IMG/VR virus record: IMGVR_UViG_641522650_000003
Source of the DNA: a virus
Taxonomy: Duplodnaviria; Heunggongvirae; Uroviricota; Caudoviricetes
Reading direction: 5' to 3' (one strand)
Length of the DNA stretch: 51,299 nucleotides
Shown here: positions 18,001 to 21,000 of the stretch, piece by piece
Numbering within the stretch: position 1 is the stretch's first letter
How the letters are laid out: every line of letters begins with the position of its first letter
Program-made: the position numbers

Positions 18001-21000
18001 AGCAATATTACTCACCAGACGCACCGCATCTTCATAAGGTCGGGCGATCGCCAGGATGATCAACATTTGCACCATTTCAGCGACGAACGTGACGGCACCG
18101 GCGGTAATGGGGTTAAAGACTTTATCAGTGCGCCCGCGACGGATCAGGATGCTGTGTACCAGGCCGCCGAGCAATCCTTCAACGATGGTCGAGATCATGC
18201 AACTTAGCGCGGTCATGCCCCCCATCGAATATCGATGTAACCCGCCGGTCAGGCCAACCAGCCCACCGACGACCGGACCGCCGAGTAAGCCGCCCATGAC
18301 CGCGCCTATCGCACGGGTATTGGCAATAGAATCGTCAATGTGCAACCCAAACCAGGTGCCCATGATGCAGAAGATGGAAAAGACGATGTAGCAGAGAAAT
18401 TTATGCGGCAGACGAACCGTGACCTGCATTAACGGTATGAATAATGGCGTTTTACTCATTAACCATGCAATGACTAAAAAAACGCACATCTGCTGAAGCA
18501 GCAGCAACACCAGATTAAAATCGTACATACCCGCAAACCACACTTCCCTTTAAAACGCGTAACATATATTGCCTGCGTTTAACTTTCTTTGAACTCTTGC
18601 AGAAAAATGAGAATTCGTGAGTACAATCACTCAAAATCGCCTGGCAAAAATAAAATCACCCTATAAATGCACAAAAAACGGGCAAAACTACCTGGTTCGC
18701 AAAACTGCGTCTAAAGTTAAACCGGGACCTCGCGAGCAAGGGTGAGACGATGGCGCTTTACACAATTGGTGAAGTGGCGTTGCTTTGTGATATTAACCCT
18801 GTCACGTTACGCGCGTGACGCAACATTTTTAAAAATCGACGAAGATCGTCCAGGAGCGCCGTTTTTCAAGGGTTGGATAGATGATTCGTTTACCATGTCG
18901 ACGAACTTCGACGAATTTCGCCGATAAAAAGTGTCCCATACATGCCCCATTGATGCCCCATAAACAATATCAGGAATTGACACTGGTTATCCATACAGAT
19001 AAAAATAACACCTGTACATAACTACAGTTACAGGAGGGGGTAATGACTCCAACTTATTGATAGTGTTTTATGTTCAGATAATGCCCGATGACTTTGTCAT
19101 GCAGCTCCACCGATTTTGAGAACGACAGCGACTTCCGTCCCAGCCGTGCCAGGTGCTGCCTCAGATTCAGGTTATGCCGCTCAATTCGCTGCGTATATCG
19201 CTTGCTGATTACGTGCAGCTTTCCCTTCAGGCGGGATTCATACAGTGGCCAGCCATCCGTCATCCATATCACCACGTCAAAGGGTGACAGCAAGCTCATA
19301 AGACGCCCCAGCGTCGCCATAGTGCGTTCACCGAATACGTGCGCAACAACCGTCTTCCGGAGCCTGTCATACGCGTAAAACAGCCAGCGCTGGCGCGATT
19401 TAGCCCCGACGTATCCCCACTGTTCGTCCATTTCCGCGCAGACGATGACGTCACTGCCCGGCTGTATGCGCGAGGTTACCGACTGCGGCCTGAGTTTTTT
19501 AAGTGACGTAAAATCGTGTTGAGGCTAACGCCCATAATGCGTGCAGTTGCCCGGCATCCAACGCCATTCATGGCCATATCAATAATTTTCTGGTGCGTAC
19601 CGGGTTGAGAAGCGGTGTAAGTGAACTGCAGTTGCCATGTTTTACGGCAGTGAGAGCAGAGATAGCGCTGATGTCCGGCAGTGCTTTTGCCGTTACGCAC
19701 CACCCCGTCAGTAGCTGAACAGGAGGGACAGCTGATAGAAACAGAAGCCACTGGAGCACCTCAAAAACACCATCATACACTAAATCAGTAAGTTGGCAGC
19801 ATCACCACAGGAGGGTGTTATGCGTGTTGAGATCTGTATCGCTAAAGAAAAAATCACTAAAATGCCAAACGGTGCTGTGGATGCGTTAAAGGAAGAATTA
19901 ACCCGACGCATCAGTAAACGTTATGACGATGTAGAGGTGATCGTAAAAGCCACCAGCAACGATGGCCTTTCTGTTACGCGCACCGCCGATAAAGATTCAG
20001 CTAAAACTTTTGTTCAGGAGACTCTGAAAGATACCTGGAAGTCTGCTGACGAGTGGTTTTTTCACTAATTAACACGTAAAATCGGTAACAGCTGGAAATC
20101 ATTCAATACTCGCACTATCGAAAGTTCGCCAGCCAGCCGTGGCACGTTCTTGCATACGACGTGCTACGGTTTCATTCATCTCCGACCGGAAACTTCTTAT
20201 ACAAAGTCGATACGCCAACATCATAGATGATCACCACCTTCTGGCGAGAAACTCCTGATGCAATTTGTCGTCCGGCCTGTGCCTATTGCTCCGGCGTGAG
20301 AGTAATACAGTAAACTGTAGAAAAAGCCCATTAAACCTAATATAATAATAAGTTACAGAATTATCTTTACTGAATAATAGATATATGAATATTAGTGAAC
20401 TTAAAAAGTGCATACACTATGAAGTAATAGGTTGTAAACGCCCTTTCTCCTGGCGAAAAGCAATTGTTCGCGCAATAAAACACAGAAGATCACGTTATTT
20501 ATTTTGGTGGCGCATAGCAAAATATCTTTTTGATAAAGGCGGATACCGGCGAAAGATTGCAGGAAAAATAGAACGCTTCATTCTTGATAAATACAATGTA
20601 ACCGTTCCCTTAACTGTAAATATTGGTAAAGGGTTCGACATATCTTATCTCAATGGCGTTGTTATCGGTCACAAAGTTACAATAGGTGAAAATTGTTCAA
20701 TTAAGCCTGGGGTAACTATTGGACTTCGCGGTGAATTTAATGATATGGATATTGTCATAGGAAATAATGTAACCATTGGCTGTAACGCCACCATCCTTGG
20801 TGGCAAAGTGCATATAGGGAATAATGTAAAAATAGGAGCTCATGCATTGGTACTGCATGACATTCCTGATGACTCCACATTCATTACCAAATTTCACTCT
20901 GAAATTATTTATAATTCATCTCACACATAATTCCGTTTAATCACAGCTCAGGCCATACGATATCCGGGGCTGTATTTATATCAATCCGACTCACTAATAC

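What the first reader, a model, noticed from the sequence alone, without database searches (positions are those of the whole stretch)
18977..19822. IS1 inserted precisely between a LexA-box promoter and the dinI-like coding sequence, duplicating the Shine-Dalgarno
A strong sigma70-like promoter (TTGACA-17-TAAAAT) and a canonical LexA operator (CTGTACATAACTACAG) end 2 bp before IS1 copy 3. The 9-bp target duplication ACAGGAGGG contains the AGGAGG ribosome-binding site, so one copy stays with the promoter and the other sits 4 nt upstream of the dinI ATG. The SOS-regulated promoter is thus separated from the gene by 768 bp of IS1; expression would now depend on read-through or an IS1-derived outward promoter.
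Basis: seen in the sequence. Interest (0 to 1): 0.6.

Follow-up and report, generated by a model that had tools for sequence, protein, structure and literature searches.

The report
IS1 splits SOS promoter from prophage dinI
A copy of the jumping gene IS1 has landed between a DNA-damage-controlled promoter and the small prophage gene it used to drive, in a Shigella boydii-type genome full of such insertions; it is real but an ordinary case of insertion-sequence decay.

Summary
A complete 768-bp IS1 (19039-19806) with a perfect 9-bp duplication ACAGGAGGG lies between a LexA-controlled promoter and an intact 82-aa DinI homologue (19820-20068). E. coli B19374, phage VT1-Sakai and others carry the same locus uninterrupted, with one copy of the 9-mer.

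- The -10 is TAAAAA (17-nt spacer) or AAAAAT (18-nt), not TAAAAT.
- The LexA box ends 2 bp before the duplication, 11 bp before IS1.
- A second, conserved LexA box (18983-18998) fills the -35/-10 spacer.

The promoter and SOS box of this cassette were annotated in VT1-Sakai (AP000400.1). LexA control of phage dinI homologues was shown experimentally for Gifsy prophages.

The same insertion occurs in S. boydii 600657 and two other assemblies, and in none of 5,426 complete E. coli genomes. The surrounding prophage is an IS-riddled remnant inserted in mlrA.

Most likely effect (inferred, not measured): the gene is cut off from its SOS promoter. The transposase genes point away from dinI. The IS1 end offers only a -35 with no usable -10 before the start codon. 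The promoter-side ribosome-binding site now drives a 5-codon mini-ORF, followed by about 750 nt with no evident translation, which favours Rho-dependent polarity.

This is a new instance of a well-known kind. Low interest.

The parts
18751..18817 (+). 5' stub of mlrA (yehV) ending in the prophage attachment core CCTGTCACGTTACGCGCGTG (18798-18817). This marks the prophage end next to which the dinI cassette sits.
   Evidence: The translation MALYTIGEVALLCDINPVTLRAW is found at 18750/51. The core is identical to the att site annotated in VT1-Sakai AP000400.1.
18977..18982 (+). -35 hexamer TTGACA of the dinI-like promoter.
   Evidence: It starts the stretch annotated as 'putative promoter of H0001 and H0002' in VT1-Sakai. 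It is conserved as TTGACA or TTGATA in relatives.
18981..19000 (+). LexA box 1 (20-mer CACTGGTTATCCATACAGAT; core CTG-N10-CAG at 18983-18998), occupying the -35/-10 spacer.
   Evidence: Weight-matrix score 15.4 bits, rank 3 of 51,280. A CTG-N10-CAG box is present at this position in all 24 uninterrupted upstream variants and in PhiR12_2 and VT1-Sakai. In BP-4795 it is degenerate (CAA for CAG, 14.1 bits).
19000..19006 (+). -10 region TAAAAAT (TAAAAA with a 17-nt spacer, or AAAAAT with an 18-nt spacer).
   Evidence: 10 of 12 consensus matches with the 18-nt spacer.
19010..19029 (+). LexA box 2 (ACCTGTACATAACTACAGTT; core 19012-19027), just after the -10 and over the expected transcription start.
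   Evidence: Score 17.9 bits, rank 2 in the window. Identical to the feature 'LexA protein, putative SOS box' of AP000400.1.
19030..19038 (+). Left copy of the 9-bp target duplication ACAGGAGGG. It carries the Shine-Dalgarno AGGAGG (19032-19037), which stays with the promoter.
19043..19060 (+). Five-codon mini-ORF ATGACTCCAACTTATTGA (MTPTY*), created by the orphaned Shine-Dalgarno plus an ATG in the IS1 right inverted repeat, 5 nt downstream.
   Evidence: Read directly from the sequence; translation. That it is translated is an inference.
19039..19806 (-). IS1, 768 bp. insA (19476-19751) and the insB' frame (19054-19431 and upstream) are on the minus strand, with the A6C frameshift motif about 19494-19500. 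The insA-proximal end (IRL) abuts dinI, so IS1 transcription runs away from dinI and towards the SOS promoter.
   Evidence: Pfam hits: Zn_ribbon_InsA, HTH_Tnp_IS1, DDE_Tnp_IS1.
19793..19798 (+). Outward-facing -35-like TTGGCA in the IS1 end, 8 nt from the tip. The only -10 candidate at a 17-nt spacing is TGTTAT (19816-19821), which lacks the key A at position 2 and overlaps the start codon.
   Evidence: IS1 half-promoter concept: PMC8764528, PMC5526668.
19807..19815 (+). Right copy of the target duplication ACAGGAGGG (Shine-Dalgarno AGGAGG at 19809-19814), 4 nt before the ATG.
19820..20068 (+). Intact dinI-like gene, 82 aa plus stop.
   Evidence: Pfam PF06183 DinI, 67.7 bits against a cut-off of 24.2. 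PHROG 189 'RecA filament binding protein DinI'. Full-length match to E. coli DinI structure 1GHH, E=1.2e-11. The exact protein is also encoded at empty-site loci.

Best explanation
A functional-looking IS1 transposed into the 5' leader of a monocistronic, LexA-repressed dinI-like cassette. The cassette lies at the tail-fibre end of a lambdoid prophage integrated in mlrA/yehV, in a Shigella boydii (serotype 4-like) lineage.

Shown: the insertion duplicated the 9 bp that contain the ribosome-binding site. It left the promoter with its two LexA operators on one side and an intact RBS plus dinI ORF on the other.

Inferred consequence: the gene is largely disconnected from its SOS promoter.
- On DNA damage the promoter should still fire.
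- The transcript now enters IS1 antisense to the transposase genes.
- It is probably translated only over a 5-codon mini-ORF.
- It then runs about 750 nt with no evident translation, through C-rich sequence, before reaching dinI. These conditions favour Rho-dependent termination, and IS1 is classically polar in both orientations.
- IS1's own promoter points the other way. Its outward -35 finds no usable -10 before the start codon.

DinI-like expression is therefore expected to be low and poorly SOS-inducible. The event is best seen as one more neutral or nearly neutral step in the IS-driven decay of a defective prophage, not as a designed regulatory device.
For: Structure:
- IS1 boundaries, duplication and four near-identical copies.
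- Exact empty site in E. coli B19374, VT1-Sakai and seven other contigs.

The operators belong to dinI:
- Box 2 is kept in all 24 uninterrupted upstream variants from IMG/VR and in PhiR12_2, BP-4795 and VT1-Sakai. Box 1 is kept in all of these except BP-4795, where it is degenerate (CAA for CAG). This holds across at least three unrelated upstream contexts.
- More distant phage DinI genes (35-51% identity; three Klebsiella phages, mEp237, Gifsy-2, SEN34) each have one near-consensus box over the -10; the Yersinia phage YeP3 homologue has none.
- AP000400.1 annotates the promoter and SOS box.
- Lemire et al. 2011 showed that the LexA box region upstream of the Gifsy-2 dinI homologue is needed for mitomycin-dependent prophage induction, and that the tagged DinI homologue accumulates after mitomycin treatment.
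- Statistics: three sites of at least 15 bits in the window against 0.07 expected. The third is the box before the known SOS gene molR, a positive control.

No IS1-derived expression expected:
- insA and insB are on the opposite strand.
- A relaxed scan finds no decent plus-strand promoter inside IS1. The hybrid candidate TTGGCA-17-TGTTAT overlaps the ATG.
- Published reporters show the terminal 600 bp of IS1 do not drive a downstream gene by themselves. IS1 supplies only a context-dependent half promoter (PMC5526668; PMC8764528, where IS1 upstream of osmB lowered expression).

Polarity conditions:
- Mini-ORF MTPTY* then no plausible translation; C/G ratio 1.2-1.65 over 19080-19440; no intrinsic terminator.

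Decay context:
- About 11 IS copies in 51 kb, tail fibre and portal genes broken, no early region in the window.
- Shigella chromosomes carry 229-348 IS copies, mostly IS1 (PMC7373316).

Lineage restriction:
- Same junctions in CP049281.1 (S. boydii 600657) and CP026762.1.
- Right junction only in CP026866.1 and one IMG/VR contig.
- Absent from 5,426 complete E. coli genomes and from the metagenome contigs.
Against: - No expression data of any kind were available, so the loss of SOS-inducible expression is an inference.
- IS1 polarity and its Rho dependence rest on classical genetics recalled from memory (gal and lac operon insertions). I could not find an open-access source in the library.
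- Polarity is rarely absolute, and the promoter has a consensus -35, so some induced read-through may reach dinI. Its RBS is intact.
- The dinI ORF shows no decay: the protein is 100% identical to empty-site alleles. That is compatible with a recent insertion but also with continued use.
- The LexA weight matrix was built from 20 E. coli sites recalled from memory, so the scores are approximate.
Confidence: 0.75

Rival explanations
1. Read-through model: the insertion is only weakly polar. After LexA cleavage, transcripts from the upstream promoter cross IS1, and the duplicated RBS allows near-normal, still SOS-inducible DinI-like synthesis from a longer leader.
For: The promoter and both operators are untouched. 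The RBS and ORF next to IS1 are intact. No intrinsic terminator was predicted on the plus strand within IS1. The ORF is undecayed.
Against: About 750 nt of leader have no evident translation after a 5-codon ORF, with C exceeding G, which suits Rho. IS1 is classically strongly polar in both orientations (own knowledge). Convergent transcription from the IS1 insA promoter would also interfere. IS1 upstream of osmB reduced its transcript about 4-fold in ST131 (PMC8764528).
Confidence: 0.15
2. Promoter-replacement model: IS1 supplies a new LexA-independent promoter, either a hybrid (-35 in the IS1 end, -10 in the flank) or an internal outward one. The dinI-like gene would then be expressed constitutively instead of on DNA damage.
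For: The IS1 ends carry an outward -35 (TTGGCA at 19793-19798). Such hybrids are documented for blaTEM, acrEF and afaA.
Against: The only -10 candidate at the right spacing is TGTTAT. It lacks the essential A at position 2 and overlaps the ATG, so any transcript would start inside the ORF without RBS or start codon. The scan finds no other plus-strand promoter of at least 9 of 12 matches in IS1. The best relaxed hit is 8 of 12 with a 19-nt spacer. The terminal 600 bp of IS1 alone did not drive a reporter (PMC5526668).
Confidence: 0.06
3. Exaptation model: the orphaned SOS promoter now matters for IS1 rather than for dinI. Damage-induced transcription into IS1, antisense to insB and insA, would lower transposase expression or end activity of this copy. 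Because the copies are identical, it might act on other IS1 copies in trans.
For: Geometry only. A LexA-controlled promoter with a consensus -35 points into IS1 against its transposase genes. The IS1 copies in the window are identical. External transcription into IS1 has been reported to reduce transposition, and IS1 transposase to induce SOS (own knowledge, not checked here).
Against: There is no evidence of selection. The arrangement is confined to one lineage and has already been broken by IS1-IS1 recombination in CP026866.1. Rho would probably limit the antisense RNA to the 3' part of insB.
Confidence: 0.04

Closest known systems
H0001 (DinI homologue) cassette of Stx1 prophage VT1-Sakai (Sp15) at yehV/mlrA in E. 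coli O157:H7 Sakai, GenBank AP000400.1
   Same: Same integration site and att core. The 446 bp to the left of IS1 are 99% identical and the dinI region is 96% identical. The promoter (window 18977-19005) and putative SOS box (window 19010-19029) are annotated on exactly these bases.
   Different: VT1-Sakai is uninterrupted (one ACAGGAGGG) and belongs to a complete Stx1 phage. Here IS1 splits the cassette and the prophage is a remnant. The record annotates one SOS box, while I find two.
LexA-controlled dinI-antirepressor (gfoA/gftA)-irsA operon of Salmonella Gifsy-1, -2 and -3 (Lemire, Figueroa-Bossi, Bossi 2011, PMC3121763)
   Same: [quoted passage not shown] LexA dependence was shown experimentally there. 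Gifsy-2 DinI is 40% identical to the window protein.
   Different: Gifsy has one near-consensus box over the -10 and downstream antirepressor and irsA genes that trigger induction. In the E. coli/Shigella tail-end cassette, no downstream plus-strand gene is shared among the relatives sampled, and there are two boxes.
Polar IS1 insertions (gal and lac operon mutations) and IS1 hybrid promoters (Prentki et al. 1986; afaA in ST131, PMC8764528; Steinrueck and Guet 2017, PMC5526668)
   Same: IS1 between a promoter and its gene, a 9-bp duplication, and an outward -35 eight nt from the tip. The outcome depends on the flanking -10.
   Different: Here the flank gives no usable -10 upstream of the start codon, so silencing is expected rather than activation. 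The affected promoter is an SOS promoter and the duplication happens to be the RBS.
Chromosomal dinI of E. coli K-12 (structure 1GHH)
   Same: Same fold family (PF06183), same length, and a conserved C-terminal W-SAD-WF helix region. Both are LexA-regulated.
   Different: The match is distant (phmmer E=1.2e-11 over the full length). The window gene is prophage-borne with dual operators. Its effect on RecA is untested.

Membership tests
IS1 (IS1 family insertion sequence) | 768-bp element with imperfect terminal inverted repeats | tested here: met
   19039-19806 is 768 bp. The ends GGTAATGACTCCAACTTA... and GGTGATGCTGCCAACTTA... match at 22 of 35 positions.
IS1 (IS1 family insertion sequence) | insA and insB' reading frames with an A6C frameshift motif | tested here: met
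   Pfam Zn_ribbon_InsA plus HTH_Tnp_IS1 (91 aa) and DDE_Tnp_IS1. AAAAAAC is at element position 307.
IS1 (IS1 family insertion sequence) | 9-bp target-site duplication, with an empty site in relatives | tested here: met
   ACAGGAGGG on both sides, and a single copy in B19374, VT1-Sakai and others.
LexA (SOS) operator | CTG-N10-CAG palindrome close to the consensus TACTG(TA)5CAGTA | tested here: met
   Box 2 scores 17.9 bits and box 1 scores 15.4 bits. The 20 training sites range 13.1-27.5. These are ranks 2 and 3 of the window; shuffles give 0.07 sites of at least 15 bits. The matrix was built from sites recalled from memory.
LexA (SOS) operator | Overlaps the promoter or transcription start of the regulated gene | tested here: met
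   Box 1 fills the -35/-10 spacer. Box 2 starts 4-5 nt after the -10.
LexA (SOS) operator | Conserved upstream of orthologues | tested here: met
   24 of 24 uninterrupted IMG/VR variants, and 9 of 10 sampled phage homologues down to 35% identity.
LexA (SOS) operator | LexA binding and damage-inducible transcription | not testable with these tools
   Shown only for the distant Gifsy homologues (PMC3121763).
DinI family (PF06183) | Profile match above the curated threshold over the whole small protein | tested here: met
   67.7 bits against 24.2. PHROG 189. 1GHH E=1.2e-11, residues 1-81.
DinI family (PF06183) | Binds and modulates RecA filaments | not testable with these tools
Gifsy-type LexA-controlled dinI-antirepressor-irsA operon | Small antirepressor gene and irsA homologue downstream of dinI on the same strand | tested here: not met
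   The only plus-strand ORF of at least 30 aa between 20069 and 20384 is a 39-aa GTG ORF with no Pfam match. The plus-strand ORFs of at least 35 aa after dinI differ among the 10 relatives sampled. What follows is a hexapeptide acetyltransferase and convergent tail-fibre genes.
IS1-generated hybrid promoter | Outward -35 in the IS1 end plus a functional -10 at 16-18 nt in the flank, upstream of the RBS | tested here: not met
   The -35 TTGGCA is present, but the flank gives TGTTAT (no A at position 2), which overlaps the ATG. It was not reported by the consensus scan.

The most novel reading that the evidence does not exclude
The orphaned, LexA-repressed promoter has become an SOS-inducible antisense promoter for IS1. 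DNA damage, including damage caused by IS1 transposase itself, would trigger transcription against insB and insA from this locus. That would damp transposase expression of this copy and possibly, through the identical sequence, of the many other IS1 copies in the genome. The result would be an accidental negative-feedback loop on IS1 expansion in one Shigella lineage.
Probability: 0.04. Interest if true: 0.5.

Novelty: new member of a known kind. Interest (0 to 1): 0.15.

Why it matters
The wider significance is small.

- It is a clean, fully documented natural example of IS1 removing a gene from the SOS regulon without touching the operator, the RBS or the coding sequence. Empty site, filled site and a secondary rearrangement are all available.
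- It adds one regulatory casualty to the catalogue of IS-driven decay in Shigella.
- It shows that gene-content comparisons miss this kind of loss, because the ORF is intact and annotated.
- The dinI cassette at the tail-fibre end of lambdoid and Stx prophages carries two conserved LexA boxes rather than the single annotated one. This is a small correction that may interest people modelling SOS timing of prophage genes.
- If prophage DinI-like proteins modulate RecA during quinolone stress, as suggested in PMC10575684, strains with and without this insertion would be natural isogenic-like comparators.

Tried and rejected
1. Assembly artefact or chance repeat. Rejected: identical junctions occur in independent assemblies (CP049281.1, CP026762.1, plus the right junction in CP026866.1 and an IMG/VR contig), and exact empty sites exist.

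2. LexA box belonging to another gene or to the attachment region. Rejected: the box or boxes travel with dinI across at least three unrelated upstream contexts, and homology starts at the -35.

3. Gifsy-type operon with a downstream antirepressor. No downstream plus-strand ORF is shared among the relatives sampled.

4. Outward or hybrid promoter from IS1. Scanned with strict and relaxed criteria and found nothing usable.

5. Known structured RNA in the region. Only a sub-threshold partial CssrB hit downstream of dinI, 29 bits against a gathering score of 76.

6. Same insertion in E. coli. Whole-locus and both junction queries against 5,426 complete genomes gave no place spanning a junction. 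The one apparent neighbour (strain EC27) has IS1 downstream of a different dinI copy.

7. Metagenome scan for the right junction gave no match.

8. The genome-contig scan for homologues returned only four close E. coli/Shigella loci and was not informative about distant species.

9. Library searches for an open-access source on IS1 polarity and Rho found none, so that step rests on my own knowledge.

10. The species of CP026762.1 and CP026866.1 could not be established with the tools.

11. The 9-mer of the duplication also occurs inside IS1 (19719-19727). I considered homology-guided targeting, but it is the antisense of insA codons and most simply a coincidence.
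Full report
**1. What is in the sequence**

The region reads, left to right:
- TTGACA (18977-18982)
- CTGGTTATCCATACAG (18983-18998)
- A-TAAAAAT (-10 region, 19000-19006)
- CTGTACATAACTACAG (19012-19027)
- TT
- ACAGGAGGG (19030-19038)
- IS1 (19039-19806)
- ACAGGAGGG (19807-19815)
- TGTT
- ATG (19820) of an 82-codon ORF ending at 20068

The element is exactly 768 bp. It is identical or nearly so (0, 0 and 1 mismatches) to three other IS1 copies in the window. It encodes InsA and the InsB' frame on the minus strand, with the A6C frameshift motif. 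It has the usual imperfect terminal repeats. The end proximal to insA (IRL) abuts the ORF, so IS1's own transcription runs away from that ORF.

**2. Is it a real insertion?**

Yes. E. coli B19374 carries the same btsS / mlrA-stub / dinI / acetyltransferase / tail-fibre arrangement with a single ACAGGAGGG. It is base-for-base identical across the junction.
- Of the ten contigs shown that encode exactly this protein, seven have the empty site. Two have both IS1 junctions (CP049281.1 and CP026762.1). One has only the right junction (CP026866.1).
- CP049281.1 is Shigella boydii 600657, serotype 4 (PMC7545283). It differs from the window by 4 substitutions in 6,249 bp. The window therefore comes from a close relative.
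- None of 5,426 complete E. coli genomes has either junction, whereas 1,251 have the uninterrupted locus at 80% coverage or more.
- The metagenome collection has no copy of the junction.
- In CP026866.1 the left side of the same IS1 is the region upstream of ruvA, with no matching 9-mer. A later IS1-IS1 recombination has carried the promoter elsewhere.

**3. The promoter and operators**

I built a weight matrix from 20 E. coli LexA sites that I recalled from the literature, so the scores are approximate.
The next best site scores 12.9.
- Dinucleotide-preserving shuffles give 0.07 sites of at least 15 bits per window. Two such sites within 40 nt never occurred in 200 shuffles.
- The top site lies 8 nt before the stub of the gene downstream of metG, that is molR, a listed SOS gene. 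It serves as a positive control.
- Box 1 fills the spacer between -35 and -10. Box 2 covers the expected start site. Both are placed to exclude RNA polymerase.
- The -10 is TAAAAA (17-nt spacer) or AAAAAT (18-nt spacer), not TAAAAT.

**4. The operators belong to dinI**

- Among 56 IMG/VR loci with enough upstream DNA there are 25 distinct upstream sequences. One carries the IS1 junction. The other 24 all keep both CTG-N10-CAG boxes at about -60 and -31 from the ATG.
- The DNA further upstream falls into at least three unrelated contexts, and similarity begins at the -35.
- The phage homologues at 61-66% protein identity (PhiR12_2, BP-4795) keep box 2 and the two-box layout, although box 1 of BP-4795 is degenerate (CAA for CAG, 14.1 bits).
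- Phage homologues at 35-51% identity (three Klebsiella phages, mEp237, Gifsy-2, SEN34) each have a single near-consensus box overlapping the -10.
- Only a Yersinia phage, where dinI follows another gene closely, has none.
- The GenBank record of prophage VT1-Sakai (AP000400.1) is integrated at the same yehV/mlrA core sequence. It annotates window-equivalent 18977-19005 as 'putative promoter of H0001 and H0002' and 19010-19029 as 'LexA protein, putative SOS box' in front of its DinI homologue.
- For the Gifsy prophages, Lemire et al. showed that the LexA-box region in front of the dinI homologue is needed for mitomycin-dependent induction. They also showed that the DinI homologue accumulates after mitomycin C (PMC3121763).

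The intact cassette is already known.

**5. The gene**

The ORF is a bona fide DinI family member:
- Pfam PF06183, 67.7 bits.
- PHROG 189.
- Full-length match to E. coli DinI structure 1GHH, E=1.2e-11.

Unlike the Gifsy operon, nothing consistent follows it on the same strand.
- The only plus-strand ORF of at least 30 aa before the acetyltransferase (20385-20930) is a 39-aa GTG ORF with no family match.
- The plus-strand ORFs of at least 35 aa that follow dinI differ among the ten relatives sampled.
- The acetyltransferase has its own AT-rich promoter-like region, TAGAAA-17-TATAAT.

I therefore treat the cassette as monocistronic.

**6. What the insertion most likely does (inference)**

(a) IS1's own promoter points away from dinI.

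(b) IS1 ends carry an outward -35; here it is TTGGCA, 8 nt from the tip.
- The only -10 candidate at a 17-nt spacing is TGTTAT. It lacks the critical A at position 2 and overlaps the ATG, so any start would lie inside the ORF.
- The consensus scan reports no plus-strand promoter within IS1.
- The best relaxed hit is 8 of 12 with a 19-nt spacer.
- In reporter plasmids the terminal 600 bp of IS1 did not drive expression. IS1 gave only a half promoter dependent on the adjacent 20 bp (PMC5526668).
- In ST131, IS1 raised, lowered or did not change downstream transcripts according to that context (PMC8764528).

(c) Transcripts from the SOS promoter now meet the orphaned Shine-Dalgarno followed 5 nt later by an ATG in the IS1 end.
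- This gives MTPTY-stop (19043-19060).
- They must then cross about 750 nt with no evident translation and with C exceeding G (C/G 1.2-1.65 over 19080-19440), without an intrinsic terminator.
- These conditions favour Rho-dependent termination. IS1 insertions are classically polar in both orientations. That statement is my own knowledge; I could not retrieve an open source.

The expected result is low, poorly inducible DinI-like expression, with some leak-through possible. No expression data were available, so I put 0.75 on this explanation. I put 0.15 on substantial retained SOS-inducible read-through and about 0.06 on an IS1-derived promoter.

**7. Context**

The prophage is a remnant.
- Its tail-fibre gene is split by IS1 copy 4, which has its own duplication GCATAATTG.
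- The portal gene is cut to 257 codons beside an IS3-family element.
- Beyond that come a TonB-dependent receptor, IS2 and another IS3-family element.
- No integrase, repressor or lysis genes are seen.

The window holds about eleven IS copies (IS66, IS110, four IS1, two IS2, three IS3-family). Shigella chromosomes carry 229-348 IS insertions, roughly half or more of them IS1, and at least 199 pseudogenes (PMC7373316). One IS1 in a gene leader is therefore unremarkable.

**8. Comparison and verdict**

The finding works like a classical polar IS1 insertion. It is a member of that kind. It is not an IS1 hybrid-promoter activation (feature tested and not met), and the cassette is not a Gifsy-type antirepressor operon (feature tested and not met).

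New here:
- the specific insertion and its lineage restriction;
- the derived rearrangement in CP026866.1;
- the mini-ORF detail;
- the second conserved LexA box.

None of these changes how SOS regulation or IS1 is understood. Novelty: new member of a known kind. Interest: 0.15.

The most novel reading still open is that the orphaned promoter makes an SOS-inducible antisense RNA against IS1 transposase. I rate it about 4% likely to matter, and moderately interesting if it does.

Noticed in passing
window 18751-18817: The prophage is integrated in mlrA (yehV), the activator of curli gene csgD. Only the first ~20 codons remain here, ending at the same 20-bp att core as Stx1 prophage VT1-Sakai (Sp15) of O157:H7. 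The 3' part of mlrA is not in the window.
   Followed up: partly
window 11330-11349 and 11357-11941: The best LexA-matrix site of the whole window (AACTGGATAAAATTACAGGG) lies 8 nt before a 194-aa WGR-domain stub of molR, a known SOS gene of 1264 aa in E. coli B19374. The stub lies next to an IS2 copy (12372-13645), which probably cut it. So two SOS promoters in this window have lost their gene to IS elements.
   Followed up: partly
window 5078-5845 and 14527-15294: IS1 copies 1 and 2 have no matching 9-bp flanks. They sit where E. coli has extra genes: yehC is truncated and yehI-yehR are missing between the molR stub and yehS. This points to IS-mediated deletions.
   Followed up: partly
window 21513-25460: The prophage tail-fibre gene is split by IS1 copy 4 (22825-23592), which has its own perfect duplication GCATAATTG. 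The N-terminal part is 23571-25460 and the C-terminal part is 21513-22838.
   Followed up: yes
window 41286-51299: The prophage ends in a truncated portal gene (257 aa) beside an IS3-family element (43267-44085). Then come a TonB-dependent receptor (45221-47311), IS2 (47722-48995), another IS3-family element (49718-50536) and a DUF826 ORF. No terminase, early, lysis or integrase genes were seen.
   Followed up: partly
window 19719-19727 (inside IS1) vs 19030-19038 and 19807-19815: The duplicated target 9-mer ACAGGAGGG also occurs inside IS1 on the same strand (antisense of insA codons Cys-Pro-Ser-Cys), 80 bp from the end. The chance of a 9-mer match to IS1 is about 0.006. It is probably a coincidence between a strong RBS and that codon run.
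   Followed up: no
L005 (CP026866.1) 2220-2987: The same IS1-dinI right junction, but the left flank is the region upstream of ruvA-ruvB (itself an SOS operon) with no matching duplication. This is a secondary IS1-IS1 recombination that moved the dinI promoter elsewhere in that genome.
   Followed up: partly
window 20138-20194, minus strand: A sub-threshold partial Rfam match to CssrB (chromosome-encoded Shigella sRNA B): 29 bits against a gathering score of 76, E=0.0016. It lies just downstream of the dinI-like gene.
   Followed up: no
window 20385-20930: A low-GC hexapeptide-repeat (serine or O-) acetyltransferase gene with its own promoter-like TAGAAA-17-TATAAT. It is wedged between dinI and the tail-fibre assembly gene and looks like a moron. 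It is present in some relatives (B19374) and replaced by a methyltransferase or other genes in others.
   Followed up: partly
L097-L106 (phage homologues): Two operator architectures exist for phage dinI genes. Gifsy-2, SEN34, mEp237 and three Klebsiella phages have one near-consensus LexA box overlapping a TATACT -10. The E. coli Stx/lambdoid tail-end cassette has two weaker boxes flanking the -10.
   Followed up: partly
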